A stretch of 64,000 nt of DNA from a virus (lineage: Duplodnaviria; Heunggongvirae; Uroviricota; Caudoviricetes), in IMG/VR virus record IMGVR_UViG_3300025697_002467; one strand, written 5' to 3'. The number at the start of each line of letters is the position of its first letter. Position 1 is the first letter of the stretch. The notes under the pieces are model-generated. The model saw only the letters and a program-made list of their open reading frames with translations. It was not told where the DNA came from and made no database searches. Position numbers and translations under genes: made by a program. This document shows, one piece after another, positions 27,549 through 44,946 of the stretch.

Positions 27549-28508
27549 TTACTGGCCTCCTGCCAAGTCTTGTAGGTTTTTGAAACGGCTGATGTATTCT
27601 TCTATAGGGACGATTGCTGTTTCAGCTACGTCCAAGGTCTTGGCATAATCCACAGCTTTCTGAAGTTTCTCAAGACACTCTTGGATTTGGTCGATATCGA
27701 AACGGACATCGGAAATATCCTTGGGGATACTTGTTATTGGGTTATCTGTTTCATCCAAGTCAATCAGGATATTCATTAACCAAGGCATCTCTGTAGCTAA
27801 AGCCCCTACACATTTATTTCCAGCAGCCTTGAACATCCCCATATCCACCAACCCTTTCAAGAGTTTTGGAGTGTTGAATGTGTCTCGGGCAGCCCTGATT
27901 GTCATCACATTATATCCATCACGCCCATAAGGGATTGCATAACCACTCAAGAAATCTTTTGGACTCATTGGCAATTGGTAGAAAACACTCGTGGCTTTGG
28001 GAGTTTTTAAACTTTCTTTACCGTTTAATGCTTTCTCTTTATCCCCAACTGCCTTATTAAGGTCGTATGGAGCCTTCGTTGCCATCATATCCAATAGGAT
28101 TAGGGAACGGATCGGATAATTGTGATTGGTCATATAGTCCTTAGCCAATTCCCAATCTTTCTCAGTTGTTGGGTGATTCCCTGAAAACTGTTTATAAGCT
28201 TCAACATTACTTTGCCATCCAAGGAATGGGACAAAGGGAGAATCTACAACGTAATCTCCAGGAACTTTATTACCATCATTCAGGGAAGATTCAGAATCAT
28301 TTTTTCCAGAGGGCAAAGTCATAAAACCTGAAGGCTTATTACCTTTGAAATCTACGTACAGGAAATAATCCAAACCGTCCACATTCCCTATCATGAGAGA
28401 CATGCCAGTGGCATCTCTTAATTCAGGGTTGGAGGTATCGGATGTGAACAGGCATGTGCCTCTTACGAAATAATTTCGTTTTTGTCCTTCAATCTTAATA
28501 AGTCTCAT
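27549..28508 (-). CDS. hypothetical protein, distal gene of the NAD/ADP-ribose operon
   Basis: ORF of 319 aa with no recognisable motif; its stop overlaps the NMNAT start region. Confidence 0.6.
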   Translation of the reverse strand: MRLIKIEGQKRNYFVRGTCLFTSDTSNPELRDATGMSLMIGNVDGLDYFLYVDFKGNKPSGFMTLPSGKNDSESSLNDGNKVPGDYVVDSPFVPFLGWQSNVEAYKQFSGNHPTTEKDWELAKDYMTNHNYPIRSLILLDMMATKAPYDLNKAVGDKEKALNGKESLKTPKATSVFYQLPMSPKDFLSGYAIPYGRDGYNVMTIRAARDTFNTPKLLKGLVDMGMFKAAGNKCVGALATEMPWLMNILIDLDETDNPITSIPKDISDVRFDIDQIQECLEKLQKAVDYAKTLDVAETAIVPIEEYISRFKNLQDLAGGQ

Positions 28509-29059
28509 AAGTATAGTCCTTTCTCGACTATGTAATCAAACACATTTTTTGGAATCATCTTCTCTACATAAGGCATATTAGTTTCGTGAGCTGCAATCAG
28601 CTCACGAATCCTGGTGGAACTGATATTAGGCATCTCCCATACCCAAATTGAATCAGAAGACCTTTCTCGTGGAACGACATGTAATCCTATCAGGTTCTCA
28701 AGGATGTTCCAATCTTTCCATCGGTGTTGCTCTAACACATTATCTGAACCTATAATGAAAGTGAAATCATTATCAGGATAGTCCCGTTGCAGGTTCGTTA
28801 CTAAGTGAATGGAGTATTTGGTCTGGTACATCTTCTCATAATGACGAACAATCACATTTGGCCATTGAGAGAAAGCTAACCGGCACATTTCCATCCGAGT
28901 CTCGAAAGGCAACAAGCTGTCATTCTTATCAAAAGCATGTTCCCAACATGGGAGCACCCAAACTTCATCAAATTTCCCAGAAGCTAATGCATCCGTAACC
29001 ATGAAAAGATGGGCTTTGTGTGGTGGGTTAAAACCACCACCGAGAATAGCAACTCTCAT
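28505..29059 (-). CDS. nicotinamide/nicotinate mononucleotide adenylyltransferase (NMNAT, NadD-like)
   Basis: ILGGGFNPPHKAH matches the (H/T)xGH nucleotidyltransferase motif; the ISSTRIR motif is also present. Confidence 0.8.
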   Translation of the reverse strand: MRVAILGGGFNPPHKAHLFMVTDALASGKFDEVWVLPCWEHAFDKNDSLLPFETRMEMCRLAFSQWPNVIVRHYEKMYQTKYSIHLVTNLQRDYPDNDFTFIIGSDNVLEQHRWKDWNILENLIGLHVVPRERSSDSIWVWEMPNISSTRIRELIAAHETNMPYVEKMIPKNVFDYIVEKGLYL

Positions 29060-29787
29060 TACTTCACCTCAAAATCAATCCCCTGCTCAAGCAGGGCTTC
29101 GTAGTTGGTTTTATCAAAACGATACTTGAGGGCTGGTCTGCCCCCACTCCGCTTCTGTCCGTCAGGAGTTAACACACCCAACTTCATTACTTTAGCTCGG
29201 AAATTCCGTTTATCAAGTTTCTGGCCGAGAATGGCCTCATAGACCTCCTGAAGCTCTGTAAGAGTAAAAGCCTCTGGTAGGACGTTAATACCTATCGGTT
29301 GCCACCTGACCTTAGATCTGAGCCTCTGAAGGCCCCTCTTAATGATCTTATTGTGGTCGAAAGCCAAGCTGGGTAATCCTGAGATAGGAAACCACTTAGC
29401 TTTGGCTGCATCGTCTCCAGCTTCGACGGTTACGTCAGCAGCACGGACGAGTGCCAGATAAGATGTGGAGATTACTCTGCCACGAGGATCTCGTCCAGGG
29501 TCTCCAAAGGTATAGAGCTGTTCCATCCAAGCCAGCTTCACGCTGGTTTCTTCTTCCAGTTCCCGAAGGACAGCTTGATCGATGGTTTCGTCTTCTTCAA
29601 GATAACCCCCGGGCAATGCCCACTGGCCTTTGAAAGGGTCGTCTTTTCGTTCAATCAGGAGAACATGGAGTTCATTCCTGTCTATGAACATCTTATCAGG
29701 CCCAATGCCGAACACCACTGCATCTACAGTATTGTCGGCCATTGGGTAATCGTATGTATATGATTGTTTTTTATTTCTCGACTTCAA
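29059..29787 (-). CDS. Nudix hydrolase (ADP-ribose pyrophosphatase-like) with a C-terminal winged-helix-like domain
   Basis: Nudix box GGYLEEDETIDQAVLRELEEETSV. Its start overlaps the NMNAT stop. Confidence 0.8.
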   Translation of the reverse strand: MKSRNKKQSYTYDYPMADNTVDAVVFGIGPDKMFIDRNELHVLLIERKDDPFKGQWALPGGYLEEDETIDQAVLRELEEETSVKLAWMEQLYTFGDPGRDPRGRVISTSYLALVRAADVTVEAGDDAAKAKWFPISGLPSLAFDHNKIIKRGLQRLRSKVRWQPIGINVLPEAFTLTELQEVYEAILGQKLDKRNFRAKVMKLGVLTPDGQKRSGGRPALKYRFDKTNYEALLEQGIDFEVK

Positions 29788-29965
29788 CGGTTGGCCATCC
29801 TTTCAGAATTTTTCTAATCCCTAAAAAAGCCACTTTGTAAGCAGCATAATGTCCTTCAAGGTATTTTAAGCTATGATCGGAATCAATACATGCTTCGTTT
29901 TTTTCTTCAAGGAGCTTGGCCAAGGCCTGTAACTCCGTATGTGCCGTTTCTATTTTTGTTGACAT
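29771..29965 (-). CDS. hypothetical small protein
   Basis: Internal Met of the listed 29771..30031 ORF; it lies between the macro and Nudix genes. Confidence 0.3.
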   Translation of the reverse strand: MSTKIETAHTELQALAKLLEEKNEACIDSDHSLKYLEGHYAAYKVAFLGIRKILKGWPTVEVEK

Positions 29966-29978
29966 CCCTACAACCCTC

Positions 29979-30905
29979 CTATTTAACAGGTACTTTAATG
30001 ATGTTTCCGTCAGCGTCACGTTTGATAGCAACGTACACCAAATTAGCAGCCGTCACATATTTCTCATCGTCTTCACGTCCTGGTCGTGAAGCTGTAACTT
30101 CTACCCGAACAGTGATGGAGGTTTTACCAATTTTGACCAGTGATGTCCAAAAACTGATTGCATCACCGATCTTCAAAGGCTTCTTAAACTCAATACCGTC
30201 CATTGCAATGGTAGCCACATCGTGGTTTGTGTGACGTTGAGCTTCCATAGCTCCTGCCAGATCAATCTCAGCCAGAACAGCCCCGCCAAAGACTTCTCCA
30301 CGGTGGTTAGTATCTCTTGGGAGCAGCATTCTACGAACTGCTAAATAACGGTCGATCTTGGAGTTAATGACAATTTTAGCAGTCTCCAATTCTTCATCGG
30401 TAAACATCACCAATGAAATTTCTTCAATGTGGTCCCATTTCCGGGAAGTGGCTGCTTTGTAAGCTATGTTGACACCCAGTTCCAGAGGACAACCATACAC
30501 ACCACAAGAGATGGCAGGGAAAGCAATCGTTTTGCATTGGGTTGCATCGGCCAATTTAAGACTATTCAAGTAGGCTTCATACAAAAGTTTTTCTTTATCG
30601 GTACCATCCGGCAGAGTGATAGCATTATCAATTTCGATGTCTGCAAACAAAGGACCCACGGTATGAATGACGTAACGTGCAGGAAGATTGTACCCTGCTG
30701 TCAGAAAAGCCTCACCTGTATAACAACGGACACCAGGTTCTTTTTCAGGAAGTTGCTCACAAGCAAACTTGAGAGCCGAGCCAGCACCACGATGGATTGC
30801 ACCATCTACACCACCACCCCCTAATAGGGAAGGACGGCCAGCATTAACGATGGCATCAACGATCATTTTGGTAATATCATCTTGAATAACAAGTATTTTG
30901 GTCAT
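29979..30905 (-). CDS. macro-domain (ADP-ribose-binding/processing) fused to a hotdog-fold acyl-CoA thioesterase
   Basis: N-terminus VIQDDITKMIVDAIVNAGRPSLLGGGGVDGAIHRGAG is a macro domain; C-terminus GGAVLAEIDLAGAMEAQRHT...ATIAMDGIEFKKPLKIGD is a YciA/4HBT-type thioesterase. Confidence 0.75.
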   Translation of the reverse strand: MTKILVIQDDITKMIVDAIVNAGRPSLLGGGGVDGAIHRGAGSALKFACEQLPEKEPGVRCYTGEAFLTAGYNLPARYVIHTVGPLFADIEIDNAITLPDGTDKEKLLYEAYLNSLKLADATQCKTIAFPAISCGVYGCPLELGVNIAYKAATSRKWDHIEEISLVMFTDEELETAKIVINSKIDRYLAVRRMLLPRDTNHRGEVFGGAVLAEIDLAGAMEAQRHTNHDVATIAMDGIEFKKPLKIGDAISFWTSLVKIGKTSITVRVEVTASRPGREDDEKYVTAANLVYVAIKRDADGNIIKVPVK

Positions 30906-30924
30906 GATTTTTTTCCTTCAGTTT

Positions 30925-31128
30925 TTAGTGTATACGTTTGCAATGATGAGGCCATACTTCTCTGCCATGATGAGGCCATACTTCATCCGTTTTCAATTCA
31001 TGATCTGTAACCTCTAGTTTAGGGGCTAAGAGGACACGCCCCCAGAACTCCTTTACATTAATAGGTTCAGGAGGGTCTACGTGCGTGAAAGGATGAATTA
31101 CATCAATGATAATCAAATCTTTTTTCAT
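30925..31128 (-). CDS. hypothetical protein containing an in-frame tandem repeat
   Basis: Encodes EVWPHHGR-EVWPHHCK from a 24-bp tandem DNA duplication. Confidence 0.35.
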   Translation of the reverse strand: MKKDLIIIDVIHPFTHVDPPEPINVKEFWGRVLLAPKLEVTDHELKTDEVWPHHGREVWPHHCKRIH

Positions 31129-31505
31129 GATTTTTCCTTTTTTCCTATGTGTTCGTGAAGGCCTCCGGCAATATCACCTTTGACATCACAGTCTGTGTTG
31201 GCAGGATACCAGTTTTCCCCTCTTTCCTCATGGAATTCCTTGTCGGATTCATGAGGGTTAGGAGCTACAATAAATCCAGGCAGTGAAGTCCCACCATCAA
31301 GACAGGTAAGAATACTGAAGGCCAGACCTTCCATCCGTTCTCGAGTGGTTTTGTCAGGAAGATCATGCCAGTATTCGGTCATCATACGAACGTGGTCAAG
31401 GAACATTTCCCTGACCTCGTCCGTGGTGTATTCTCGTGAATCAGACATGTTAATTTCCTTGGTAAAATTGTATAAGGCTGATATAATGTGTAATGGTAAC
31501 GGCAA
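31125..31505 (-). CDS. hypothetical protein
   Basis: ORF of 126 aa; the likely start is the internal Met MSDSREY. Confidence 0.45.
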   Translation of the reverse strand: MPLPLHIISALYNFTKEINMSDSREYTTDEVREMFLDHVRMMTEYWHDLPDKTTRERMEGLAFSILTCLDGGTSLPGFIVAPNPHESDKEFHEERGENWYPANTDCDVKGDIAGGLHEHIGKKEKS

Positions 31506-31650
31506 GTGCTAAAACCATAGTAATAACAACATTGAATTTTTCTATAGATTTCTTTTTGGATAATTCAAATGTCCCAGAAAAAACAAAAACCAGAACCCCA
31601 AAAAACATCATAAACCAGTGGAAATACTCATGATTTATATAATCCGGCAT
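31450..31650 (-). CDS. small membrane protein
   Basis: Two transmembrane helices in 66 aa. Confidence 0.35.
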   Translation of the reverse strand: MPDYINHEYFHWFMMFFGVLVFVFSGTFELSKKKSIEKFNVVITMVLALAVTITHYISLIQFYQGN

Positions 31651-32054
31651 TAGTTAGCTCCTTTCTGACCAAGCTGCATCAGAACCATGCTGTTAGGGAT
31701 TTTGTAGCTTTTACCGGTTACACAATCCACAACTGAGATTGGGTACTTAGGACGACGAGTGTTGATTCCAGTGATTTTAGCCATGTTGCCGTTGTTGAGG
31801 CGGATTTCTTTGTTGTAGTCATCTTCGGTCATGTTATACAAAGGAGCAAGACGTTTGAAATCAGCAGGGATACCATCTTCGGTAACAATACAGAATTTCA
31901 GTTTAGGGCTGTAACTGGCAGCGGGGTCATACTTGCCACCGTTGATGCTCATAGTCAAGCCGTGTTTCTCTACAACCTCAGCTAAAGCAGCTTTGATCTC
32001 AGAGTCCAGTGTTGTCATAAATGCTTTTGTTACCTTGGTAATTTTCTGTGCCAT
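31650..32054 (-). CDS. hypothetical protein
   Basis: ORF of 134 aa with a good RBS (ccaaggagatgaacaatg). Confidence 0.5.
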   Translation of the reverse strand: MAQKITKVTKAFMTTLDSEIKAALAEVVEKHGLTMSINGGKYDPAASYSPKLKFCIVTEDGIPADFKRLAPLYNMTEDDYNKEIRLNNGNMAKITGINTRRPKYPISVVDCVTGKSYKIPNSMVLMQLGQKGAN

Positions 32055-32134: not shown

Positions 32135-32135
32135 A

Positions 32136-32429
32136 TTATTTTTTCTTTTTAGCAGATTGTGCTGCTTCGATGAATCGGCCAAGGAATTTACTGTAGTATG
32201 TTTCAGCAGTTTCAACGGCAGCTTTCTGTGTTTTAGCTGTGAAATCCTCAGCCCAAACAGCATCCTCTGGGTCAATGATATCATTTTCATCTTTAATCAT
32301 GAAGAACACTTGATATTTTTTCTTGTCGTAGTCAACAGTAAGTTCATCTCCTGGAGCATGAACTAATGCAGCTCCAAAAAAACCATCATCCGAGTACCAC
32401 AAGCCTTTTGATTTCTTCTTAAATTTCAT
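32136..32429 (-). CDS. hypothetical protein
   Basis: ORF of 97 aa. Confidence 0.5.
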   Translation of the reverse strand: MKFKKKSKGLWYSDDGFFGAALVHAPGDELTVDYDKKKYQVFFMIKDENDIIDPEDAVWAEDFTAKTQKAAVETAETYYSKFLGRFIEAAQSAKKKK

Positions 32430-33379
32430 TCATCTTCTCCTAACTTCAAAAGTTTTCGAACCAACTCTTTCATATCCGTTGGCCATAACCATTCTGGTCG
32501 AGGGTACTGAGTATCTGGTGAACCGTACTGAGGTTCACAGTTCAATACGGTATCCTGCCATTTCTTAGGGATTGCTTCGATTCCATAGTAAGCTCCAAGG
32601 AGAGCCCCGACAATAGCACCGTTTGTATCGGTATCCCCACCACGTTGAATAGTGTCTACCAGACCTTCCTCAAAATTCTCAGCATGAAGCAACTGCCAGA
32701 AAGCATTCTGGAGAGCAATCAAGACCCAGCCCATCTGGTGAAAATACTCATCAGGAGGATTCTGTTTAGCATTTGTAAGAGCTTCAATAACAGAAGGAGA
32801 AATTCCCCGTTTCTTGGCCAGTCGTAGAATAAACTCATATATTTCCAAGGGGCTTTCGTCCCTTACCAAGCAGGTATAAAGTGCAAACACGAAAACACTG
32901 TTTGCATCGACACACACCTGATTGACATGAGTGATTCTACAATCGTGTGCAGCCCAACCCATAAATTTATTAGGGAAAGCCAGACCCAGAATGCCTAACG
33001 GGGCAGCCCGCATCATGGCTCCATTAGCTTGGCTGCCTTTGTCAAATCTGTTGGACAGAGATTTGTTGATGGTCCCACCAATACCGAAAGGCATCGTGTT
33101 TCTCCACTCTATGTAAGCCCTCTTAACTTCGTTCGTTTTATACCTGCCGTTTTTCAGGACCGATCGAATCATAGCCAGAGCCATCTCAGAATCATCCGTA
33201 ATCTGTCCAGGAGCTAATTTCCATACTCCAGGGTCACCAAACTCACGAACACCTTTAGGATACCTCCATTGGATGTCAGCAGGGTTCTCAAATTCCACGA
33301 TAGCTCCGAGAGCGTCTCCAACACACATTCCAATGAGACAGCCATCAGTTTTGTTAAGTTGTTTTTTTGTCGGTTTCAT
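32426..33379 (-). CDS. ADP-ribosylglycohydrolase (DraG/ARH family)
   Basis: GCLIGMCVGDALGAIVEF, GQITDDSEMALA and GGDTDTNGAIVGALLGA motifs. Confidence 0.8.
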   Translation of the reverse strand: MKPTKKQLNKTDGCLIGMCVGDALGAIVEFENPADIQWRYPKGVREFGDPGVWKLAPGQITDDSEMALAMIRSVLKNGRYKTNEVKRAYIEWRNTMPFGIGGTINKSLSNRFDKGSQANGAMMRAAPLGILGLAFPNKFMGWAAHDCRITHVNQVCVDANSVFVFALYTCLVRDESPLEIYEFILRLAKKRGISPSVIEALTNAKQNPPDEYFHQMGWVLIALQNAFWQLLHAENFEEGLVDTIQRGGDTDTNGAIVGALLGAYYGIEAIPKKWQDTVLNCEPQYGSPDTQYPRPEWLWPTDMKELVRKLLKLGEDE

Positions 33380-38254: not shown

Positions 38255-39037
38255 TTAAAATAAATTAAGTATATTAATTTCAACTTCTTGTTTGGAGATA
38301 CGTTTTACAGCACCATCAAAGATTTCAGGATCTAATTCAATCCCTATAAAACCTCTGTTCAGTTCTATACAAGCAACCCCTGTTGTTCCTGATCCCATAG
38401 TGAAATCTAATACTAACTCATTTTCATTTGTGTAAGTTTTAACTAAATAAGTCATTAGTGCAACAGGCTTTTGGGTGGGGTGAAGTTTACTACCTTTTGG
38501 GGTGTTTGGAACACTTTTAAATTTTAACACCGTTTTGGGATTTACCTTTGTTTCATTATAAAATTTTGCTTTTTGGTTTCCCATTTTTATGTGATTAGAC
38601 TTGTTACTATTTCCCTGAAGTTTATATTTTGCTCTATCAAGGCTACTACTGTTTCTCTCGGCTAATTGCTTATTAAAAGTTGGCTTTCCTTTGTTTATAA
38701 AAATGCTTATTGTTTCATGATATTTCATAGGCATATATGAACTTTGTGCCATTCCTGTTGGCATTGATTTTTGCCATATCCAATCATATTTATAATTCTT
38801 AATATTGCTCATTCTCAAAGCACTTGAAAATGGTTCACTACCAAATAAAACAATAGCCCCATTTGGTTTTATTAATTTGTTTAACCGTTCCCACAGTTCA
38901 TCAAAAGGGATAATAAAATCCCATTTACATGCCGTGGTACCATAAGGGGGGTCCGTTATGATAGCATCTACTACAACCCCCTTTTTAATTAAAAAGTCCA
39001 TCTCTTTCAGACAATCCCCATTTATAAGATTAATCAT
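38255..39037 (-). CDS. DNA methyltransferase, N6-adenine or N4-cytosine (beta class)
   Basis: ITDPPYG (motif IV) lies N-terminal to FTMGSGTTGVAC (motif I); HPTQKP is also present. Confidence 0.8.
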   Translation of the reverse strand: MINLINGDCLKEMDFLIKKGVVVDAIITDPPYGTTACKWDFIIPFDELWERLNKLIKPNGAIVLFGSEPFSSALRMSNIKNYKYDWIWQKSMPTGMAQSSYMPMKYHETISIFINKGKPTFNKQLAERNSSSLDRAKYKLQGNSNKSNHIKMGNQKAKFYNETKVNPKTVLKFKSVPNTPKGSKLHPTQKPVALMTYLVKTYTNENELVLDFTMGSGTTGVACIELNRGFIGIELDPEIFDGAVKRISKQEVEINILNLF

Positions 39038-39942
39038 TTTCCCTCTTCCTCAATGATCTCCTCAATGTAAATAGCTCCGACCCCCAAATCGTCGTAATGT
39101 TGCCATTGCTTTTTCGGGAGAGTTTTCTTCTCAAAGGCATTAAGCCTACGTTTTACAAAAGAACCCTTCAGGTTCTTAAAACCCACTATATGAGGAAGAA
39201 CTTCAGCCAGAGGAACAGGGACTGGGGAAAGGTCACTGATATCTTGAAAAGATTCAACTCCATCACTCATCAAAACTACCAAATCTGTGTCTCTGGGATC
39301 TACAAGGAACGTGAAGTCTGGAAAACTTTCCAGTTCATCAGGAGTCCATTCCCAGATGGCTTTTTCTTCACCATCCACAATAACAGTTACTTTCCGGCCA
39401 CCGAAACCAGCCTTTTTCAGAGCTTCCATTCGGTCAGGGCTGCTAAAGTACGAAGGATAAGCTGGAGCACCCCCCTGGTCGATAATGTAAGTTTCAAGAG
39501 AACCATTCCGACGCCGGACTGACACCACACCATCTCCAAAGACCTGAACCTTGATGTAACCGGTAGGTGTGGAGTAAGCTGCCATCAATGTGGCATCCAA
39601 ACACCCCTCCGATAATTCTCTCGGATGTTCTGCAAACCACATCAATCTTTGAACATCAATATTTTTGATCGGCCCTCCTTGAATACACCTTTGTGCTGAA
39701 AGAACCAAAGACCGAGACCCAAAATCGGTATCCTTAGAAGAAGAACATCCATCTGATACAAACACAGCTACAGAGGGTGTTATCTCTTTAAAATCAAAAC
39801 ACCTTGAATAATCCTCACAGACGTGGTGGGAGGAACCAATGGTGAAATAATCATCCGTGTGAAAATGGAACTTCCGGCCATCCTCAATAGGTTTGCCCAA
39901 CGGGGGGAAAAACCTCAAATATCGTGAAATGTCAGGCTGCAT
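39034..39942 (-). CDS. PP2C-type Ser/Thr protein phosphatase-like protein
   Basis: FVSDGCSSS and VLMSDGVESF metal-binding Asp motifs in a PPM-like arrangement. Confidence 0.6.
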   Translation of the reverse strand: MQPDISRYLRFFPPLGKPIEDGRKFHFHTDDYFTIGSSHHVCEDYSRCFDFKEITPSVAVFVSDGCSSSKDTDFGSRSLVLSAQRCIQGGPIKNIDVQRLMWFAEHPRELSEGCLDATLMAAYSTPTGYIKVQVFGDGVVSVRRRNGSLETYIIDQGGAPAYPSYFSSPDRMEALKKAGFGGRKVTVIVDGEEKAIWEWTPDELESFPDFTFLVDPRDTDLVVLMSDGVESFQDISDLSPVPVPLAEVLPHIVGFKNLKGSFVKRRLNAFEKKTLPKKQWQHYDDLGVGAIYIEEIIEEEGK

Positions 39943-39959: not shown

Positions 39960-40703
39960 TCAGAAAGTGATGGACTGTGAAGGACCGCCGGTGCCCAGAG
40001 CTTGGGACTGGCTGGAAATCGACTTCGAGATGAAGTTGGCCAGCTTTGCCAGTTCGTTGGCTGTGGCATTGGCAATGGCCACATACTGCTGGAATCCACC
40101 GTTGTCACGGTAATCTTCCAGGTAGTGATTCAGGCCATTTGCAGCATCGGTGTTGACACCAATAAGAACCGGCATGATGGACTCAACTGCTTCATCGGTC
40201 TTGGCTTCACGGATGGCATCAGCCACCATCTTCATCGAAACACTGGAGCAGTTGTCATCACCATCGGTAATAACGAACACAGCCGAATTGACAGCATAAT
40301 CCTGTTCGGTCAAGTCCCGACCAAAATCGGTCATTGCTTTGACCGCATTGTAAGTGGCATCAAACAGTGAAGTTCCACCACCGGGACGGATAGTGCCGTC
40401 ATACAGGTTGTCATTGCAGTTGGAGAGGAGTTGGAACCCGTGGATTTCATCAACACGAGTGTTGAAATAAACCACACGTAACATCAGGTTATCCACACGT
40501 TTGTCCTTCTGACAGGCACGAGCGACGGTTTTGACAGCTTCTTCGATGTCCTTTCCGAACCCTGTTACGGAACCTGACACATCAACCACGAGGGTGACGA
40601 GGGTGTATTCGGAAGCTCCTGTCAGGGATTCAATCTTCTGGGCAGAAAATCCGTAGTTGGAACCGGCAATGGTTTTCATTTCCATGTCATCAGTAAATTT
40701 CAT
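39960..40703 (-). CDS. von Willebrand factor A (vWA) domain protein
   Basis: MIDAS motif LVVDVSGSV, plus GGTSLFDA and VFVITDGDDN. Confidence 0.8.
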   Translation of the reverse strand: MKFTDDMEMKTIAGSNYGFSAQKIESLTGASEYTLVTLVVDVSGSVTGFGKDIEEAVKTVARACQKDKRVDNLMLRVVYFNTRVDEIHGFQLLSNCNDNLYDGTIRPGGGTSLFDATYNAVKAMTDFGRDLTEQDYAVNSAVFVITDGDDNCSSVSMKMVADAIREAKTDEAVESIMPVLIGVNTDAANGLNHYLEDYRDNGGFQQYVAIANATANELAKLANFISKSISSQSQALGTGGPSQSITF

Positions 40704-40731
40704 AGCACAATATCCTTTCTTTGCTGGCAGT

Positions 40732-41577
40732 TTAGGCCAGGAAGTCCACCGTAGTGGAAAGTTTCATACCTTTAGCAACCATGTCTTTAACGAATGCATC
40801 ACCGAGGAAATCAAAACCAGGCACGTTTGATGAGGCATCTGTCAACAGAGTGATTTTCTGGATGTACTTCGGGTCACTAAAACTGTCAGCAATATCACGT
40901 CCAGAGTTAGCCAAGCAATGGCTGAGGGCTTCACCCGAAAGGGCAATGATGTCAGCTTCTTCCAGAGTCTGGATCAGGCCAGTGTTGATCTGAGTTGTAG
41001 GATCATCAGGATCTGGCACTTGAGCTTTAACAGCACCAAAATGCTCGGTGAAGATGTTGGAACCTTTAGTAACATAGTTAGTTACTGCAATCTGAGCTTC
41101 CCATTCGTGGATAGCATCCAGCAGTTCAGGAACGATACAAGCACCCCAACTACCGATCAAGCAATGAACTGGCCAGATGCAATGTGGGTAACGGCCTGTG
41201 GCATCCAGATCTTCCAAGTATTTAGTAACTTTTGGAAGGAAACTGAACTTGACTGTGGTGTATTCCTCAGTCGTCGGGATTTTTTGACCAGTGGCATCCA
41301 TATCACACTTGACGATTTTACCATTGTCAAGGCCAAGAATAGTGAAGGGGTCAGGAGCAGCACCATCACTGACACGTTTCCACATCGTGGGGTGGCTGAT
41401 GTCCAGATAATGGTGACTATCCAGAGTAACGTGGATATCGTCCAGTTTACCTTTGGTACGTTGAATCATGGTTGCCAGACGTTTCATATCTTCGTCTGCA
41501 CCTGGTACGGCCAAGGTTCCTTTTTTGGGGTGACAGAAATCGTTCTGCGGGTCAATGATAAGCAATTGAATGTTCAT
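40732..41577 (-). CDS. pncA: nicotinamidase/isochorismatase-family hydrolase (PncA-like)
   Basis: LLIIDPQNDFCHPKKGTLAVPGADE matches the PncA start (DxQxDF...GGxLAV); Cys/Lys/Asp triad context. Confidence 0.7.
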   Translation of the reverse strand: MNIQLLIIDPQNDFCHPKKGTLAVPGADEDMKRLATMIQRTKGKLDDIHVTLDSHHYLDISHPTMWKRVSDGAAPDPFTILGLDNGKIVKCDMDATGQKIPTTEEYTTVKFSFLPKVTKYLEDLDATGRYPHCIWPVHCLIGSWGACIVPELLDAIHEWEAQIAVTNYVTKGSNIFTEHFGAVKAQVPDPDDPTTQINTGLIQTLEEADIIALSGEALSHCLANSGRDIADSFSDPKYIQKITLLTDASSNVPGFDFLGDAFVKDMVAKGMKLSTTVDFLA

Positions 41578-41987
41578 GAGTTATCCTTTCGGGATAAAAT
41601 TGAAATTGAAGGATTAAGTTTTCCTTCTAAAATATCGTCAGCTAATGTAGAATTTAGAGATTCATCACGGATTCTTTGTGTACGTGCCTCCCTTTTCTTT
41701 TTTTCTTCCATTTGTTCGGTATAGGTATCATGAAACTGTTTATGATTATCCAGTTTCTCATCGGTTTCGTGAACGAGTGTCAAGAAAACATGATCCCCGT
41801 AATCCTCATTATGGATTTCCAAATCAATATCAACAAGACCCACTGAGGGAAACTTGCTGGGTGCAAAATCATAAATATCCACGATACTATCCACACCTTC
41901 AGGGATTATAACCGTGTATCGGTATTTTTTTGAGTGGCCAACCTGGACTTCCCGTTTGTGATATTCTTCGTTGTAATCACACATCAT
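41574..41987 (-). CDS. hypothetical protein
   Basis: ORF of 137 aa, acidic. Confidence 0.5.
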   Translation of the reverse strand: MMCDYNEEYHKREVQVGHSKKYRYTVIIPEGVDSIVDIYDFAPSKFPSVGLVDIDLEIHNEDYGDHVFLTLVHETDEKLDNHKQFHDTYTEQMEEKKKREARTQRIRDESLNSTLADDILEGKLNPSISILSRKDNS

Positions 41988-42301
41988 TTATTATCTCCTG
42001 TTCGGCGTACCCGTAGCCATATGGCCAACCATTTATGTTTGTAAGAGAAATCATATTGTTTCTTTCGTACATGGGATGAGTAATCAGCAATAAACCCGTC
42101 TTTAAGCAATCGACCAAGAACCATCGATGCAATATTAATACTGATTCTGGCTGCCTTAGCAACTTCACGAGATGTTGCAATCCCGTTGATAGAGGCCAGG
42201 CTAGCCAGAACTTTACGTTTTTGGGGGGGCAACTCATCCATTGTAGCAGTGAATATAGGAGTCATTTCATCAAGAACTATTTTTTGGTTTTCTGTTAACA
42301 T
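41984..42301 (-). CDS. winged-helix DNA-binding protein (MarR/ArsR-like)
   Basis: LASINGIATSREVAKAARISINIASMVLGRLLKDGFI HTH region. Confidence 0.5.
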   Translation of the reverse strand: MLTENQKIVLDEMTPIFTATMDELPPQKRKVLASLASINGIATSREVAKAARISINIASMVLGRLLKDGFIADYSSHVRKKQYDFSYKHKWLAIWLRVRRTGDNK

Positions 42302-43401
42302 TATATCTCCAAACCATTAGACAAAATACCTGCCTTAACCAACTCGGCACGAGTACCGAGACTTGGGATAGCTGGGTTTTCTTTGTGCCGAGTTATCTTC
42401 TCAGCTCTACGAGCAGCCCATAGGTAATCTGCAACTTTGGGTGGTTCCATATCTTTAGGGAAAATACCTTTATCTTTAGAAATCAATATCATATGGTCTA
42501 TTAAACCAGACAGGTTAGGGACATCATCCCGAAACAAAACATCACCTATAGTTAGTTTAGGGAAAGGGGGTTCCATACCTGGAGGGTATAGACCACTTGC
42601 CCAAGCATTAGCATACTTAAATTCCGTATCCAGCAGACGAGACATTCTTTCGATGGTCCCATATTCAATAATCTTGCCTGTTTCAGGATCAACTTTACCA
42701 TAGGTAAAAGATACTCCTGTCCAGCTTTTCAGTTCGTCCTCATCGTTATGGTCATCACCATCACCCCAAAGGTCGGGGGAAGGTTTGACGGAGATCAATT
42801 CTTTGAAACACTCACCAAGAACTGAATCAGGGTGACGTTGTGAAATGCCCCAAGCCATCTGGAATACTTCTGTTTTGGTCAGCATTTCCATAGGGTTAGT
42901 GTCAACTTCTCCATCCCCACCTTTTTGGTAGAAGCGGAGGAATCGGTCTTCACATTCGTTGCCTGTACCATGACGAAGGCCACCACCATTCAGGCGGTTA
43001 AAGAAACGTCCGATAGGTGCTCGAAGTGTAGACTTAAAAGAACCTACGATAGTAGGGTCGAGTGCTATACGTTCATCAGCAGCCTTACCTAATTTCATTT
43101 TCATATCAAAAACCAGATCATTAAACAGTTCGGTTATATCGAAATCCACGAATTGAGCTTCAAGAGCATCCACTGCTAATTTTCTAGCCCGTTCGGTTTG
43201 TTCAGGGTTTGTATTGATTTTGGAATGAACTAATATAACATTTTCCACACCCAGAGCCTCTATCAACAGGTAAGCCATCACAGCGGAGTCGATGCCACCA
43301 GACAAGTCCAGTTCAGCTTTCTTTATACCACATTCTCTATGGTATGCTTGAATAGCAAAGATTCGGTTTTGTATTAAAAGTTCAATATTTGGTACACTCA
43401 T
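42301..43401 (-). CDS. nadE: NAD+ synthetase (NadE family, PP-loop ATP pyrophosphatase)
   Basis: SGGIDSAV PP-loop; GTGNECEDRF...GGDGEVDTNPMEMLTKTEV matches the NadE core. Confidence 0.8.
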   Translation of the reverse strand: MSVPNIELLIQNRIFAIQAYHRECGIKKAELDLSGGIDSAVMAYLLIEALGVENVILVHSKINTNPEQTERARKLAVDALEAQFVDFDITELFNDLVFDMKMKLGKAADERIALDPTIVGSFKSTLRAPIGRFFNRLNGGGLRHGTGNECEDRFLRFYQKGGDGEVDTNPMEMLTKTEVFQMAWGISQRHPDSVLGECFKELISVKPSPDLWGDGDDHNDEDELKSWTGVSFTYGKVDPETGKIIEYGTIERMSRLLDTEFKYANAWASGLYPPGMEPPFPKLTIGDVLFRDDVPNLSGLIDHMILISKDKGIFPKDMEPPKVADYLWAARRAEKITRHKENPAIPSLGTRAELVKAGILSNGLEI

Positions 43402-43416
43402 TTTGGTTCTCCTTCT

Positions 43417-43450
43417 ATATCAACAACCCACAACTTCGGGAAACTAAGCC
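43417..43450 (-). promoter_or_regulatory. conserved promoter-like motif, copy 7
   Basis: Immediately upstream of the nadE RBS: GTGGGTTGTTGATATAGAAGGAGAACCAAAATG on the coding strand. Confidence 0.45.
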
Positions 43451-44946
43451 AGTTTTTCAGACATCTCGTTAATTCTCATCACACACAAGGCTTGGTATGC
43501 TCTTGTAGTGGGGCTGAATGCCACATCTTTGTCCAGAGAAGGTCGATCCATCCCAGCCTCTAACAGACTGAATCCAATAGGAGGTTCTTCTCCTGCTTGG
43601 CCAATAATGCCAGTGATCTCAGTAAACTCTGTAAAGCCAGAGGTATTCTGACGGAAAATAACAGGGACACCTGGAAGTGATGCTTTAGCCGGTGCTGAAT
43701 CACAAGTCTTCATTACAGGAACATTGCTGGTCATGCTGAGTTTATAGACTGCCGAAACTCTATCACGGGTCAGATCGGTGAATTCGGGTTTAACGAAGAA
43801 CCCACCAGCACCATACAAACGGCGTTCTTTGATGATACCAAACTTATTACAGAGAGCCTCAAAGTGCAAAACTTTCTTATCGTTGATACTGTCCTCGAAA
43901 ATGTAATCTCCATTATCCAAGTCTGCCTGTCCCACACACATTGCAAGCTGGACATCCTGATCTCCAGAATCAAACCTGATAAAGAAATCCCTGTTAGGAG
44001 TTTCTCTCATCACTTTGAAAGCAGCGGGGAGACCTAATTCTATAGGGCTAAAAGTATCTGGCAAACAAGAAGGTTTACCTGATCTCATATCTCTCATAGC
44101 ACGACAGGCAGTTAAATCATCTCCCCATCTCAGGATATGTTCATGGCCTGTTGTTCCAACGGCTTTCATACCTAATTTCTCAGCCAGATAAACATTAGAG
44201 GTGCTGTTGATACCGAGATCCTTGAGGACTTGTAGAGCTATCTCGTGCATTTCCATACAGGAGCAAGCTCTCATACCGACTTCAAATAAACGGCTGGGGT
44301 CTTTATCGTCCAGAGCATCAATTAAGGACTGTGCTCTATCTGAAACATCCTGTTCATATCGTTCCTGTTCAACGGTGATGATTCGGGTACTGTCGTCTTT
44401 TCCGATAGCTTTAAGAGTAGCATGGACGATGTTTGCTTCATCCTCACAGGTACACCTGAACTCTTTTTTGTCGTTCAATAAAACTTCCGTAGCTACCTGA
44501 ATGGGGAAATGAAGCATCAAGGCCAAAGGTTCCATAACCGAAACAGGAAACGATGGGCATGTGAGTGCAAAGAAAGGTTCTTTCTCACGGACCCATGAAC
44601 CCTTGGGGGCTGCATTGATAGTGACAGAATCTTTATCTTTCAACATCTCAATAGACTCTACCATTCCAGGTGTCAAACTATAACCCATTGAATCCAAAAA
44701 AGAGGCCTCGTGTTGCCGAGGTTGCCCTGTTGGAAGCAATCCTCTAATGACAGTTTCAACGTCAAACGGGACGTAATACATTCCTTTACGTCTGAATGAC
44801 ATATAGAAGGTCTCCTCCCGCATTGGGAAACCAGCTTGTGCCATTGCAAATTTATACCCATCGGTCTTCAAAACTGAAGGACCAGAATATACATATCCAA
44901 GGATATGTTCAATCAGTTCTTGTTCGTATGTGAGTTCCATTTTCAT
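43444..44946 (-). CDS. nicotinate/nicotinamide phosphoribosyltransferase (NAPRT/NAMPT family)
   Basis: TDGYKF (TDSYK-like), IRFDSGDQD (RPDSG-like) and LYGAGGFF (GSGGG-like) motifs. The 500-aa length is typical of NadV/NAMPT. Confidence 0.8.
   Translation of the reverse strand: MKMELTYEQELIEHILGYVYSGPSVLKTDGYKFAMAQAGFPMREETFYMSFRRKGMYYVPFDVETVIRGLLPTGQPRQHEASFLDSMGYSLTPGMVESIEMLKDKDSVTINAAPKGSWVREKEPFFALTCPSFPVSVMEPLALMLHFPIQVATEVLLNDKKEFRCTCEDEANIVHATLKAIGKDDSTRIITVEQERYEQDVSDRAQSLIDALDDKDPSRLFEVGMRACSCMEMHEIALQVLKDLGINSTSNVYLAEKLGMKAVGTTGHEHILRWGDDLTACRAMRDMRSGKPSCLPDTFSPIELGLPAAFKVMRETPNRDFFIRFDSGDQDVQLAMCVGQADLDNGDYIFEDSINDKKVLHFEALCNKFGIIKERRLYGAGGFFVKPEFTDLTRDRVSAVYKLSMTSNVPVMKTCDSAPAKASLPGVPVIFRQNTSGFTEFTEITGIIGQAGEEPPIGFSLLEAGMDRPSLDKDVAFSPTTRAYQALCVMRINEMSEKLA

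What the first reader, a model, noticed from the sequence alone, without database searches (positions are those of the whole stretch)
27549..44946. An unusually complete phage-encoded NAD+ salvage pathway sits beside three classes of ADP-ribose-removing or -degrading enzymes
Two gene clusters on the same strand together encode a nicotinamidase-like isochorismatase (40732..41577), a NAPRT/NAMPT-family phosphoribosyltransferase (43444..44946), an NMNAT/NadD-like adenylyltransferase (28505..29059) and NadE (42301..43401). These four steps make up a full Preiss-Handler or NadV-type route from nicotinamide to NAD+. Alongside them are a Nudix ADP-ribose pyrophosphatase-like enzyme (29059..29787), a macro domain fused to a hotdog thioesterase (29979..30905) and a DraG-type ADP-ribosylglycohydrolase (32426..33379). 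A winged-helix regulator (41984..42301) and a 319-aa unknown protein (27549..28508) share the operons. Some phages are known to carry NadV plus NMNAT/Nudix, for example KVP40 NadV/NatV, and phage NAD+ reconstitution has been described as a counter to NAD+-depleting host immunity. The combination seen here, adding PncA-like and NadE-like enzymes plus macro, ARH and thioesterase functions, looks more extensive. I infer a dedicated anti-defense or anti-ADP-ribosylation module. The macro-thioesterase fusion and the 319-aa protein are the least characterised parts.
Basis: partly seen in the sequence, partly recalled or inferred. Interest (0 to 1): 0.8.

Follow-up and report, generated by a model that had tools for sequence, protein, structure and literature searches.

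The report
Jumbo-phage NAD salvage cassette with NrtR
A giant phage carries four enzymes predicted to rebuild NAD+ from nicotinamide, apparently taken as a block from bacteria together with a likely ADP-ribose-sensing repressor and its DNA binding site; similar pathways are already annotated in other giant phages, so the built-in sensor is the new part.

Summary
The ORFs exist as described, all on the minus strand. HMMs and conserved residues support nicotinamidase (40732-41577), NAPRT (43444-44946), NadD (28505-29059), NH3-dependent NadE (42301-43401), macro+hotdog thioesterase (29979-30905) and ARH (32426-33379).

- **Correction.** The "Nudix ADPR pyrophosphatase" (29059-29787) is an NrtR-type regulator: a Nudix domain with an intact signature fused to an NrtR winged helix.
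- **Operator.** A perfect 21-bp palindrome, TTAGTGTG-N5-CACACTAA (44974-44994), fills the spacer of a sigma70-like promoter 27 nt upstream of NAPRT. The same AGTGT-N7-ACACT core lies upstream of the homologous NAPRT in another jumbo phage and in several bacteria.
- **Origin.** The cassette looks like an imported bacterial NrtR operon. A Planctomycetota MAG has the same order, NAPRT-NadE-PncA-VWA-PP2C-kinase-NrtR. The cassette recurs in at least a dozen IMG/VR contigs, most of them jumbo-sized.
- **Prior art.** Bacillus phage G already carries an annotated NrtR-like/PncA/PncB/NadD/NadE cluster. A 2024 paper lists Preiss-Handler clusters in jumbo phages. The claim of unusual completeness is therefore weakened.
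- **Non-core genes.** ARH and the 319-aa ORFan are not conserved cassette members.
- **Apparently undescribed.** These are the phage-borne NrtR-operator pair, the embedded TerY-P-like triad, and a clade-specific Asn-to-Arg change in the macro active site. The anti-defence role remains inference.

The parts
44974..44994 (.). Candidate NrtR operator: perfect 21-bp palindrome TTAGTGTG-AAAGA-CACACTAA (read on the minus strand) with a centred GT-N7-AC core
   Evidence: It is the only exact site in the 64-kb window. It fits the NrtR operator rule in PMC2330246. The same AGTGT-N7-ACACT core lies upstream of NAPRT homologues in L008, L010, L016, L017, L019, L032 and L038.
44971..44999 (-). Sigma70-like promoter: -35 TTGACT (44999-44994), 17-nt spacer, -10 TAACTT (44976-44971). 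The operator fills the spacer and overlaps the -10. RBS AAGGAAGG at 44963-44956.
   Evidence: Read directly from the sequence. L010 has the same layout, TTGACA-17-TATAAA, with the operator in the spacer. The consensus promoter scan did not list it because the -10 is weak.
43444..44946 (-). Nicotinate phosphoribosyltransferase (PncB/NAPRT), divergent subfamily of about 480-500 aa
   Evidence: NCBIfam NAPRT models 2.9e-19 to 1e-7 over residues 196-496, below curated cut-offs. PDB 2f7f NAPRT 2.7e-5, with the GTxxHE motif aligned. 325 homologues, named nicotinate PRTase by sources. The gene sits next to NadE, PncA and NrtR in bacteria and phages.
42301..43401 (-). NH3-dependent NAD+ synthetase (NadE) with a C-terminal region of about 140 aa of unknown fold
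   Evidence: Pfam NAD_synthase 1.5e-18 (residues 11-224). TIGR00552 at 64.2 bits against a 63.65 cut-off. PDB 2e18, 3fiu and 4xfd are all NH3-dependent NadE. SGGIDS PP-loop present.
41984..42301 (-). Small probable winged-helix protein (105 aa)
   Evidence: Its own hits are sub-threshold (TrmB 0.026, HTH_24 0.062, MarR 0.081). The L001 orthologue (36% identical) passes the TrmB threshold at 2.8e-6. The AF2 model is unusable, pLDDT 45. It is found only in the window and L001.
41574..41987 (-). 137-aa protein of unknown function
   Evidence: No family match. No blastp/tblastn homologue at E<=1e-4 in any related locus.
40732..41577 (-). Nicotinamidase (PncA) with an insertion of about 65 aa
   Evidence: NCBIfam PncA 4.6e-7, N-terminus only. 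The profile of 5 orthologues hits only nicotinamidases in the PDB. Catalytic D9-K171-C221 and metal ligands D53/H55/H138 are invariant.
39960..40703 (-). VWA protein with MIDAS motif DVSGS (TerY-like)
   Evidence: Pfam VWA 1.3e-5. Sequence read directly. Conserved next to PncA in phages and bacteria.
39034..39942 (-). PP2C phosphatase
   Evidence: Pfam PP2C_2 4.7e-8. Conserved synteny.
38255..39037 (-). N6/N4 DNA methyltransferase. It is an insertion into the cassette and not a core member.
   Evidence: Pfam N6_N4_Mtase 1.1e-35. PADLOC MTase_II 8.8e-67. No homologue was found at this position in the related cassettes.
34016..35740 (-). Atypical Ser/Thr kinase (kinase domain about residues 110-229) with a C-terminal region of about 340 aa of unknown fold
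   Evidence: Pfam Pkinase 2.6e-9, 37.3 bits against a 31.7 cut-off. It is 45-55% identical over its full length to kinases in the phage loci L001 and L010 and in the bacterial locus L017.
32426..33379 (-). ADP-ribosylglycohydrolase (DraG-like ARH). It is an accessory gene, not core.
   Evidence: Pfam 1e-61. DraG TIGR02662 2.6e-44, below cut-off. The TDDSE and GGDTDTN metal motifs are present. Only a 26%-identical ARH lies next to NrtR in L018/L085/L086. It is absent from the other cassettes.
29979..30905 (-). MacroD/YmdB-type macro domain (residues 1-177, NAAN changed to NAGR) fused to a YciA-type hotdog thioesterase (188-306)
   Evidence: Pfam Macro 5.4e-35 and 4HBT 1.5e-12. NCBIfam O-acetyl-ADPR deacetylase 3.6e-52 and YciA 9.6e-19. 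The two are separate adjacent genes in L001 and fused in L012. The fusion is seen in only 3 of the top 120 homologues. The Asn-to-Arg/Gln change is specific to this clade.
29059..29787 (-). NrtR-family regulator: Nudix domain with an intact REUxEE signature (RELEEE) plus a C-terminal NrtR winged helix. The start codon is uncertain (TTG 29787 or ATG 29742).
   Evidence: Pfam NUDIX 1.5e-20 and NrtR_WHD 8.4e-22. NCBIfam NF050029 5.5e-46, 157 bits against a 400 cut-off. PDB AraR 5bs6 1e-39 and Shewanella NrtR 3gz5 1.9e-34, both full length. 60-64% identical to bacterial NrtRs encoded beside the same operator.
28505..29059 (-). Nicotinate-nucleotide adenylyltransferase (NadD)
   Evidence: CTP_transf_like 2.8e-17. 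TIGR00482 4.7e-31, 108.3 bits against a 112.45 cut-off. The GGGFNPPHKAH and ISSTRIR motifs are present.
27549..28508 (-). 319-aa ORFan, translationally coupled to NadD (ATGA overlap)
   Evidence: No family, no homologue and no related locus. The AF2 model has pLDDT 37. It is absent from all related cassettes.
27143..27173 (-). Strong intrinsic-terminator-like hairpin (13 pairs, 8 G-C, followed by a T-run) that closes the gene string

Best explanation
The 17.8-kb minus-strand gene string is a jumbo-phage copy of a bacterial NrtR-controlled NAD+ salvage operon.

**Pathway.**
- PncA deamidates nicotinamide to nicotinate.
- The NAPRT-like enzyme makes NaMN from nicotinate and PRPP.
- NadD adenylates NaMN to NaAD.
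- NH3-dependent NadE amidates NaAD to NAD+.

**Regulation.** Transcription of the NAPRT-NadE-...-PncA end starts at a sigma70-like promoter. Its spacer and -10 are occupied by a 21-bp NrtR operator. The phage-encoded NrtR, or a host NrtR with the same specificity, would repress this promoter. ADP-ribose, the product of NAD+ cleavage, would release the repressor. NAD+ destruction by host NADase immunity or other NAD+ consumers would therefore supply both the inducer (ADPR) and the substrate (nicotinamide). The NrtR Nudix signature is intact, so the protein may also hydrolyse ADPR, which would reset the switch.

**Other genes.** The macro-thioesterase and ARH are phage-side accessories that probably handle ADPR derivatives or ADP-ribosylated targets. 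The VWA-PP2C-kinase triad is an inherited but unexplained part of the operon.

**Shown here.** Gene families, conserved residues, the operator with its position and cross-species conservation, and synteny with bacterial operons.

**Inferred.** Enzyme substrates, NrtR-operator binding, ADPR as effector, and a counter-defence role.
For: - **Enzyme families and motifs:**
- **NAPRT, not NAMPT:** only nicotinate-PRT models are reported. The family is named nicotinate PRTase by sources. It co-occurs with PncA and NadE, which the amidated NadV route does not require.
- **NrtR architecture:**
- **Operator in the window:** a unique perfect palindrome obeying the published NrtR rule of a 21-bp palindrome with a GT-N7-AC core.
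- **Operator elsewhere:** the AGTGT-N7-ACACT core is exact within about 75 nt upstream of the homologous NAPRT in the jumbo phage L010/L079 and in bacterial loci L008, L016, L017, L019, L032 and L038. In the roughly 0.95 Mb of the 60 bacterial loci, only six hits with one mismatch or fewer lie anywhere other than upstream of NAPRT.
- **Broader signal:** GT-N7-AC palindromes occur upstream of NAPRT in 25 of 78 loci, against about 4 expected.
- **Protein-site pairing:** NrtRs paired with this operator are 60-87% identical to one another. L018, which lacks the site, has an NrtR only 49% identical.
- **Bacterial precedents:** NrtR regulons made of pncA, pncB, nadD and nadE, ADPR-dependent release from DNA, and catalytic activity of NrtRs with an intact Nudix signature are all in PMC2330246.
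- **Bacterial ancestry:** the Planctomycetota MAG L061 has the order NAPRT-NadE-PncA-VWA-PP2C-kinase-NrtR.
- **Literature:** NAD+ reconstitution as a phage counter-defence is described.
Against: - There are no experimental data, and the host is unknown.
- HMM scores for NAPRT, NadD and NrtR fall below the curated equivalog cut-offs.
- The best solved relative of the NrtR is Bacteroides AraR, an arabinose sensor. ADPR as effector rests on gene context and on the intact Nudix box.
- Only one operator exists in the window. The nrtR gene lies 15 kb downstream. It is not known whether the whole string is one transcript; there are gaps of 402 bp and 141 bp.
- The two closest cassettes, L001 and L012, have no operator because NAPRT there directly follows another gene.
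- A catalytically active Nudix domain would destroy its own effector.
- A four-step route that costs ATP and PRPP is an expensive emergency response compared with NadV-based NARP2.
- The same genes fit simple NAD+ homeostasis.
Confidence: 0.6

Rival explanations
1. The biochemistry is the same, but the role is housekeeping. The cassette is an auxiliary metabolic module. It raises or stabilises NAD+ for a very large phage replicating in slow-growing hosts and running NAD+-consuming enzymes. NrtR provides ordinary feedback homeostasis. It is not aimed at immune NADases.
For: The cassette is a near-verbatim import of a bacterial homeostatic operon. PMC11662467 interprets such clusters in jumbo phages as independent NAD+ synthesis systems. 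No known anti-defence protein family was detected in the region.
Against: Every experimentally tested phage NAD+ pathway found in the literature search (NARP1-3) acts against NAD+-depleting defence. Phage-specific additions (macro, thioesterase, ARH) point to ADPR-centred conflict. An inducer that is the product of NAD+ cleavage suits a damage response.
Confidence: 0.27
2. The functional centre is the TerY-P-like triad (VWA-PP2C-kinase). Some TerY-P-like modules are stand-alone anti-phage systems. The cassette could therefore be a conflict or superinfection-exclusion system, with the NAPRT-like and PncA-like enzymes making or removing a pyridine-nucleotide signal rather than bulk NAD+.
For: The triad is welded between PncA and NrtR in bacteria and phages. 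TerY-P background is in PMC11090510. Several bacterial operons are NAPRT-PncA-VWA-PP2C-kinase with no NadE or NadD detected within the roughly 10-kb flanks.
Against: NadE follows NAPRT in 18 of 21 viral loci, and NadD is present in the window. PADLOC models do not recognise the VWA or PP2C, and the kinase hits only PD-T4-6 weakly. The catalytic residues of PncA are those of true nicotinamidases.
Confidence: 0.08
3. The region is not one system. It is a run of unrelated accessory genes that happen to lie on the same strand of a jumbo phage, and the palindrome is a chance or unrelated element.
For: A DNA methyltransferase, ARH, about 13 small ORFs and an ORFan interrupt the string, and these are not conserved elsewhere. 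Only one operator is present.
Against: The order NAPRT-NadE-PncA-VWA-PP2C-kinase-(4HBT)-NrtR-(NadD) recurs in many independent phage and bacterial loci. The operator recurs at the same place in distant genomes. About 0.06 exact AGTGT-N7-ACACT matches are expected by chance in the 64-kb window, and about 6e-5 per 60-nt upstream region.
Confidence: 0.04

Closest known systems
Bacterial NrtR regulons, e.g. [quoted passage not shown] 2008, PMC2330246)
   Same: The gene set is the same: pncA, pncB, nadD, nadE and nrtR. The regulator architecture is the same (Nudix plus wHTH). The operator is a 21-bp palindrome with a GT-N7-AC core overlapping the promoter.
   Different: Here the set is carried by a jumbo phage. 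It has an embedded VWA-PP2C-kinase triad and phage-specific macro-thioesterase, ARH and ORFan additions. The NrtR keeps an intact Nudix signature.
Bacillus phage G cluster gp273-gp283 (NC_023719)
   Same: It is a cultured jumbo phage with an NrtR-like Nudix-wHTH protein (annotated MutT/NUDIX hydrolase), isochorismatase, nicotinate PRTase, NaMN adenylyltransferase and NAD synthetase in one cluster.
   Different: The origin is independent: NrtR is 34% identical, and NAPRT is 27% identical over 135 aa. It has no triad and no macro-thioesterase. It contains a KptA-like gene. No matching operator was found.
'NAD-jumbo phages' with Preiss-Handler clusters, e.g. Kuafu_71 pncB-nadD-nadE (PMC11662467)
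   Same: These are jumbo phages that encode the deamidated route to NAD+ as a gene cluster.
   Different: That work is annotation-level only. The term searches of its main text surfaced no NrtR, operator, PncA step in the cluster, or triad.
NARP2 (NadV plus bifunctional NMNAT/Nudix, as in KVP40) and NARP1 (Adps plus Namat), Osterman et al. 2024 preprint 10.1101/2024.02.11.579819
   Same: These are phage pathways that rebuild NAD+ from the products of NADase immunity.
   Different: The chemistry differs. Here the route has four steps through nicotinate, NaMN and NaAD. There is no NAMPT or Namat signature and no PRPS-like Adps. The Nudix domain is fused to a DNA-binding domain rather than to an NMNAT.
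NARP3 (PnuC plus NadR; PMC13464706)
   Same: It is a phage-encoded route that restores NAD+ against Sir2-HerA.
   Different: It imports nicotinamide riboside. No PnuC or NadR was found among the ORFs examined here.
TerY-P triad (Anantharaman et al. 2012, as summarised in PMC11090510)
   Same: The composition is the same: a VWA protein, a PP2C phosphatase and a Ser/Thr kinase encoded together.
   Different: It is linked to NAD salvage genes under an NrtR operator, not to Ter, CoCoNuT or restriction systems. The kinase C-terminus is about 340 aa of unknown fold. PADLOC defence models do not match the VWA or PP2C.

Membership tests
NrtR family of Nudix-related transcriptional regulators | N-terminal Nudix-fold effector domain | tested here: met
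   Pfam NUDIX 1.5e-20, residues 35-150. The Nudix box GX5EX7RELEEETS is intact.
NrtR family of Nudix-related transcriptional regulators | C-terminal NrtR-type winged-helix DNA-binding domain | tested here: met
   Pfam NrtR_WHD 8.4e-22, 77.5 bits against a 27 cut-off. Full-length alignment to 3gz5 and 5bs6.
NrtR family of Nudix-related transcriptional regulators | 21-bp palindromic operator with a GT-N7-AC core in the promoter of NAD genes | tested here: met
   Site at 44974-44994. Conserved upstream of orthologous NAPRT genes.
NrtR family of Nudix-related transcriptional regulators | DNA binding relieved by ADP-ribose | not testable with these tools
   This needs EMSA or ITC. The best PDB relative is the arabinose sensor AraR, so the effector is inferred from context.
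NrtR family of Nudix-related transcriptional regulators | Passes the NCBIfam equivalog NF050029 cut-off | tested here: not met
   157 bits against a 400 cut-off. It is a family member but not an equivalog of that model.
Preiss-Handler / salvage I pathway (PncA, PncB, NadD, NadE) | Nicotinamidase with Asp-Lys-Cys triad and metal site | tested here: met
   D9, K171, C221 and D53/H55/H138 are invariant. The profile hits only nicotinamidases. Pfam Isochorismatase itself does not hit.
Preiss-Handler / salvage I pathway (PncA, PncB, NadD, NadE) | Nicotinate-specific type II phosphoribosyltransferase | tested here: inconclusive
   Only NAPRT models hit (to 2.9e-19), but all are below their cut-offs. 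Family naming and gene context favour nicotinate. Substrate was not tested.
Preiss-Handler / salvage I pathway (PncA, PncB, NadD, NadE) | NadD-type NaMN adenylyltransferase | tested here: met
   TIGR00482 4.7e-31, 108.3 bits against 112.45, marginally under the cut-off. The HxxH and ISSTxxR motifs are present.
Preiss-Handler / salvage I pathway (PncA, PncB, NadD, NadE) | NAD+ synthetase with PP-loop | tested here: met
   TIGR00552 at 64.2 bits against 63.65. SGGIDS present. PDB NH3-dependent NadE hits.
NARP2 (NadV plus NMNAT/Nudix) | NAMPT (NadV) and a bifunctional NadM-Nudix protein | tested here: not met
   No NAMPT model was reported for 43444-44946; the PHROG nicotinamide-PRT hit is only 5.6e-7. 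The Nudix domain is fused to a wHTH, not to an NMNAT.
NARP1 (Adps plus Namat) | PRPS-like ADPR pyrophosphokinase next to a Namat | tested here: not met
   No PRPS-like protein among the region's ORFs scanned with Pfam, NCBIfam and PHROGs.
MacroD/YmdB-type macrodomain hydrolases | Macro fold with the GGGVDGAIH loop | tested here: met
   Pfam Macro 5.4e-35. YmdB 1spv 2.5e-35.
MacroD/YmdB-type macrodomain hydrolases | Catalytic Asn in the NAAN motif | tested here: not met
   The window has NAGR. 101 of 119 homologues have NAAN. The importance of this Asn is taken from PMC10499221 and from my own knowledge of YmdB and MacroD1.
TerY-P triad | VWA with MIDAS, PP2C and Ser/Thr kinase encoded together | tested here: met
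   The three genes are contiguous in L001, L010 and L017. In the window, a methyltransferase and small ORFs separate PP2C from the kinase.
TerY-P triad | Kinase C-terminal zinc ribbon or OB fold | not tested
   The C-terminal region of about 340 aa has no Pfam hit. No structure model was made.

The most novel reading that the evidence does not exclude
This would be a fourth, mechanistically distinct phage NAD+ reconstitution pathway: PncA-PncB-NadD-NadE. It would be wired as a damage-triggered counter-defence. A phage-borne NrtR reads ADP-ribose, the debris left by host NADase immunity, and de-represses the pathway from an operator imported with it. A TerY-P-like phospho-switch and an Asn-to-Arg macro-thioesterase would be integral, functionally new components.
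Probability: 0.3. Interest if true: 0.75.

Novelty: new variant of a known kind. Interest (0 to 1): 0.52.

Why it matters
Phage NAD+ reconstitution (NARP1-3) is a current topic in phage-bacterium conflict. All characterised versions use amidated or ADPR-recycling chemistry, and none has a described regulator.

This cassette, and its dozen or so relatives on mostly jumbo-sized viral contigs, would add the deamidated four-enzyme route. More interestingly, it suggests a sensing logic in which the product of immune NAD+ cleavage acts as the inducer. That logic is directly testable with one protein and one 21-bp DNA duplex.

The work also exposes an unexplained and widely conserved link between a TerY-P-like signalling triad and pncB/pncA in Myxococcota, Planctomycetota and phages. 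It further reveals a derived macro active site coupled to a thioesterase.

If the cassette is only homeostatic, it remains a tidy example of a whole regulon, cis-element included, moving from bacteria into phages.

Tried and rejected
- **Megablast against INPHARED.** Neither the region nor the first 25 kb gave any match, so there is no close cultured relative.
- **The 319-aa protein.** The viral locus scan, word-based homologue search and full HMMER search of 1.84 billion representatives found only a fragment of itself plus spurious hits to repeat proteins. The single-sequence AF2 model had pLDDT 37 and was unusable, so no fold search was run.
- **wH105.** The AF2 model had pLDDT 45 and was unusable. 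The winged-helix call rests instead on its L001 orthologue.
- **Extending L001 downstream.** An exact-pattern scan gained only about 760 nt.
- **Single-protein viral scans.** The macro-thioesterase query found nothing. The NrtR query found only a 33%-identical Nudix protein.
- **More operators.** Searching the window for further sites found none above chance. The one-mismatch site at 45838-45854 is within expectation.
- **Operators in the nearest relatives.** L001, L012, L018 and phage G have none of the TTAGTGT type.
- **NAD riboswitches.** Rfam finds only tRNAs.
- **PADLOC.** There is no match for the VWA, PP2C, ARH, macro-thioesterase or the unknown proteins.
- **Alternative identities for the 500-aa protein.** Namat or NadV was considered and rejected on HMM hits and gene context. 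Adps for the 319-aa protein was considered and rejected because it has no PRPS-like signal.

Full report
**1. Observation**

The ORFs form a tightly packed co-directional string from 44946 down to 27549. Several stop/start overlaps occur along it. It ends at a strong terminator-like hairpin at 27173-27143.

The window looks like part of a very large phage.
- It carries 28-29 tRNA genes interspersed with HNH endonuclease ORFs.
- It encodes a 670-aa protein that matches PHROG 1735 at 888 bits and is 53% identical to a phiCbK protein and about 50% identical to a phiRSL1 protein.
- Identical proteins occur on metagenomic contigs of up to 402 kb.
- No cultured phage in INPHARED is close at the DNA level.

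**2. What the genes are**

- **28505-29059 is NadD.** CTP_transf_like scores 2.8e-17 and TIGR00482 scores 4.7e-31. The HxxH and ISSTRIR motifs are present.
- **42301-43401 is an NH3-dependent NadE.** TIGR00552 just passes its cut-off. The SGGIDS PP-loop is present. The best PDB hits are 2e18, 3fiu and 4xfd. An unexplained C-terminal region of about 140 aa follows the catalytic domain.
- **43444-44946 is a divergent NAPRT.** Only nicotinate-PRT models hit, down to 2.9e-19. The PDB match is 2f7f. It has 325 homologues, largely named nicotinate PRTase. The 60-locus genome survey places the family mostly in Myxococcota.
- **40732-41577 is a nicotinamidase.** It gets no Pfam hit. A profile of five orthologues matches only nicotinamidases in the PDB. 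The Asp-Lys-Cys triad and the metal ligands are invariant. The protein carries an insertion of about 65 aa.
- **29979-30905 is a MacroD/YmdB-type macro domain fused to a YciA-type hotdog thioesterase**.
- **32426-33379 is a DraG-like ARH** with both metal-binding motifs.
- **41984-42301 is probably a winged helix.** Its own hits are sub-threshold, but its orthologue in L001 passes Pfam TrmB.
- **27549-28508 is an ORFan.** No family, homologue or usable structure model was found.

**3. The main correction**

The "Nudix ADPR pyrophosphatase-like enzyme" at 29059-29787 is an NrtR-family regulator.
- Its Nudix domain (1.5e-20) is fused to the NrtR winged-helix domain (8.4e-22).
- It aligns over its full length to Shewanella NrtR (3gz5) and to Bacteroides AraR (5bs6).
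- Its Nudix signature (RELEEE) is intact, as it is in all members of this subfamily.
- In the NrtR literature, an intact signature correlates with retained ADPR pyrophosphatase activity.

**4. The operator**

A perfect 21-bp palindrome, TTAGTGTG-AAAGA-CACACTAA, lies at 44974-44994, 27 nt upstream of the NAPRT start codon.
- It fills the 17-nt spacer of a sigma70-like promoter (TTGACT ... TAACTT) and overlaps the -10.
- It obeys the published NrtR rule of a 21-bp palindrome with a centred GT-N7-AC core. Published sites overlap promoters and are consistent with repression.
- It is the only such site in the window.

The decisive evidence is comparative. The exact core AGTGT-N7-ACACT recurs immediately upstream of the orthologous NAPRT gene in several other genomes.
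- A different jumbo phage of 438 kb (L010/L079) has it as two tandem sites in the same -35/-10 arrangement.
- Desulfatibacillum aliphaticivorans (L008) and a related bacterial contig (L016) have it.
- A TARA Oceans scaffold of bacterial gene content and its Kofleriaceae counterpart (L017, L019) have it, again as two tandem sites.
- A Haliangium MAG (L032) and a Planctomycetota MAG (L038) have it.

In the roughly 0.95 Mb of the 60 bacterial loci, only six hits with one mismatch or fewer lie anywhere other than upstream of NAPRT. With looser criteria, GT-N7-AC palindromes occur upstream of NAPRT in 25 of 78 non-redundant loci, against about 4 expected. The half-sites are lineage-specific.

NrtRs encoded beside the TTAGTGT-type operator are 60-87% identical to one another. 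The window's NrtR is 62-64% identical to the bacterial ones. L018, which lacks the site, has an NrtR only 49% identical.

**5. Origin and distribution**

The cassette looks like an imported bacterial operon.
- In 60 bacterial species loci carrying this NAPRT subfamily, an NrtR homologue lies 1.5-7.7 kb downstream in 37.
- PncA-like genes occur in 17 of them and NadE in 10.
- A VWA-PP2C-kinase triad occurs in 6-9.
- One Planctomycetota MAG (L061) has exactly the phage order: NAPRT-NadE-PncA-VWA-PP2C-kinase-NrtR.

On the viral side, 21 loci carry the NAPRT subfamily. They represent about 15 distinct contigs, most between 188 and 619 kb, with a few shorter ones. Counts of cassette genes among them:
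- NadE in 18.
- PncA in 17.
- The kinase in 16.
- NrtR in 13.
- VWA in 12.
- PP2C in 11.
- NadD in 6, counting only genes within 10 kb.
- Macro and/or 4HBT in 5.
- ARH in 3.

The conserved core is therefore NAPRT-NadE-PncA-VWA-PP2C-kinase-(4HBT)-NrtR-(NadD). The window's DNA methyltransferase, most small ORFs and the 319-aa ORFan appear to be local insertions. The ARH is an accessory that recurs only in a distant form next to NrtR in L018/L085/L086. Macro and 4HBT are phage-side additions, absent from all 60 bacterial loci.

**6. Mechanism proposed**

Nicotinamide is converted to nicotinate by PncA. NAPRT converts nicotinate to NaMN. NadD converts NaMN to NaAD. NadE converts NaAD to NAD+.

The promoter is open when no NrtR is bound. 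NrtR, from the phage or from a host with the same operator specificity, closes it. ADPR reopens it.

Immune NADases produce ADPR and nicotinamide together. Inducer and substrate would therefore appear at the same moment. The intact Nudix site could clear ADPR and reset the switch.

The families, residues, operator and synteny are shown by the analyses here. Substrates, DNA binding, the effector and the counter-defence role are inferred.

**7. Caveats**

- Scores for NAPRT, NadD and NrtR fall below the equivalog cut-offs.
- The nearest solved NrtR relative is an arabinose sensor.
- There is only one operator, and nrtR lies 15 kb away.
- The closest cassettes, L001 and L012, lack the operator because NAPRT there directly follows another gene.
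- The host is unknown.

**8. Comparison with what is known**

- Bacterial NrtR regulons with exactly this gene set are classical.
- Phage NAD+ reconstitution is established as NARP1, NARP2 and NARP3. None of them uses the deamidated route.
- The route is not new for phages at the annotation level. Bacillus phage G has a cluster annotated as NUDIX hydrolase (an NrtR-like protein, 34% identical over its full length), isochorismatase, nicotinate PRTase, NaMN adenylyltransferase and NAD synthetase.
- PMC11662467 reports pncB-nadD-nadE clusters in "NAD-jumbo phages".
- The 2021 jumbo-phage survey still described NadV plus two NMNATs as the most expanded version.
- Among the 20 listed of 23 papers that mention both NrtR and phage, none appears, from its title and abstract, to describe a phage-encoded NrtR.
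- Full-length NrtR-like genes occur in only about 10 of 50,697 phage records.

**9. Unexplained features worth follow-up**

- **The triad.** The TerY-P-like triad (background) is welded into the salvage operon in both bacteria and phages.
- **The macro active site.** Macro domains of this phage clade replace the catalytic Asn of the NAAN motif with Arg or Gln, while 101 of 119 nearest homologues keep it. Among the loci whose context was examined, the copies lying next to or fused with the thioesterase (window, L012, L001) carry this change. The macro of L010, which lies far from the thioesterase, keeps NAAN.
- **The fusion.** The macro-thioesterase fusion itself is confined to 3 of the top 120 homologues.

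**10. Verdict**

This is a new variant of a known kind. It is a deamidating, NrtR-gated version of phage NAD+ reconstitution that recurs in jumbo phages and derives from a bacterial operon. Interest is moderate.

Noticed in passing
window 1116-26917 (minus strand); also 22936-23003: A dense array of 28 tRNA genes by ARAGORN, plus one more found only by Rfam. Small ORFs and HNH endonuclease ORFs (6299-7168, 24065-24778) are interspersed. ARAGORN reports an undetermined tRNA with a 2-nt 'anticodon' at 23265-23340.
   Followed up: partly
window 39960-40703, 39034-39942, 34016-35740; L017 12381-15645; L061: A TerY-P-like triad (VWA, PP2C, Ser/Thr kinase) is embedded in the NAD salvage cassette. 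It lies under the NrtR operator in bacterial operons as well. The kinase has a C-terminal region of about 340 aa with no known domain.
   Followed up: partly
window 29979-30905 (residues 21-24 NAGR); L012 16113-17060; L001 20189-20773: The catalytic Asn of the macro NAAN motif is replaced by Arg or Gln across this phage clade. The copies adjacent to or fused with the hotdog thioesterase (window, L012, L001) all carry the change. 101 of 119 nearest homologues keep NAAN.
   Followed up: partly
window 45134-45820 (+): A SAM-dependent methyltransferase is transcribed divergently from the NAPRT promoter. Homologues lie near NAPRT in L001 and L010 too. Function unknown.
   Followed up: no
window 10551-12545 (-): A 664-aa protein with an SPFH/Band 7 domain (7.1e-18). 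This is unusual cargo for a phage.
   Followed up: no
window 19435-21447 (-): A 670-aa protein of unknown function matching PHROG 1735 at 888 bits. It is about 50% identical to proteins of phiCbK-like and phiRSL1 jumbo phages and matches 552 phage records. It could serve as a marker for large phages.
   Followed up: partly
window 38255-39037 and 56912-57994 (-): Two DNA methyltransferases. The first (N6_N4 type) is inserted between the PP2C and kinase genes of the cassette.
   Followed up: no
L015 (Bacillus phage G 194177-206842): The NAD cluster of phage G includes a KptA/Tpt1-like RNA 2'-phosphotransferase between the NAPRT and NadD genes. This enzyme consumes NAD+ and produces ADPR-1'',2''-cyclic phosphate.
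   Followed up: no
L018 14303-18008 (527-kb phage contig): A variant cassette: NAPRT-NadE-...-NadD-deaminase-like(262 aa)-NrtR-ARH-Nuc_deoxyri_tr2+Nudix fusion. It has no PncA-like gene and no TTAGTGT operator.
   Followed up: no
window 45838-45854: A second, one-mismatch operator-like sequence, GGTGTTTTAATAACACT, lies at the 45817-46020 ORF. It is within chance expectation (about 1.9 per window).
   Followed up: yes
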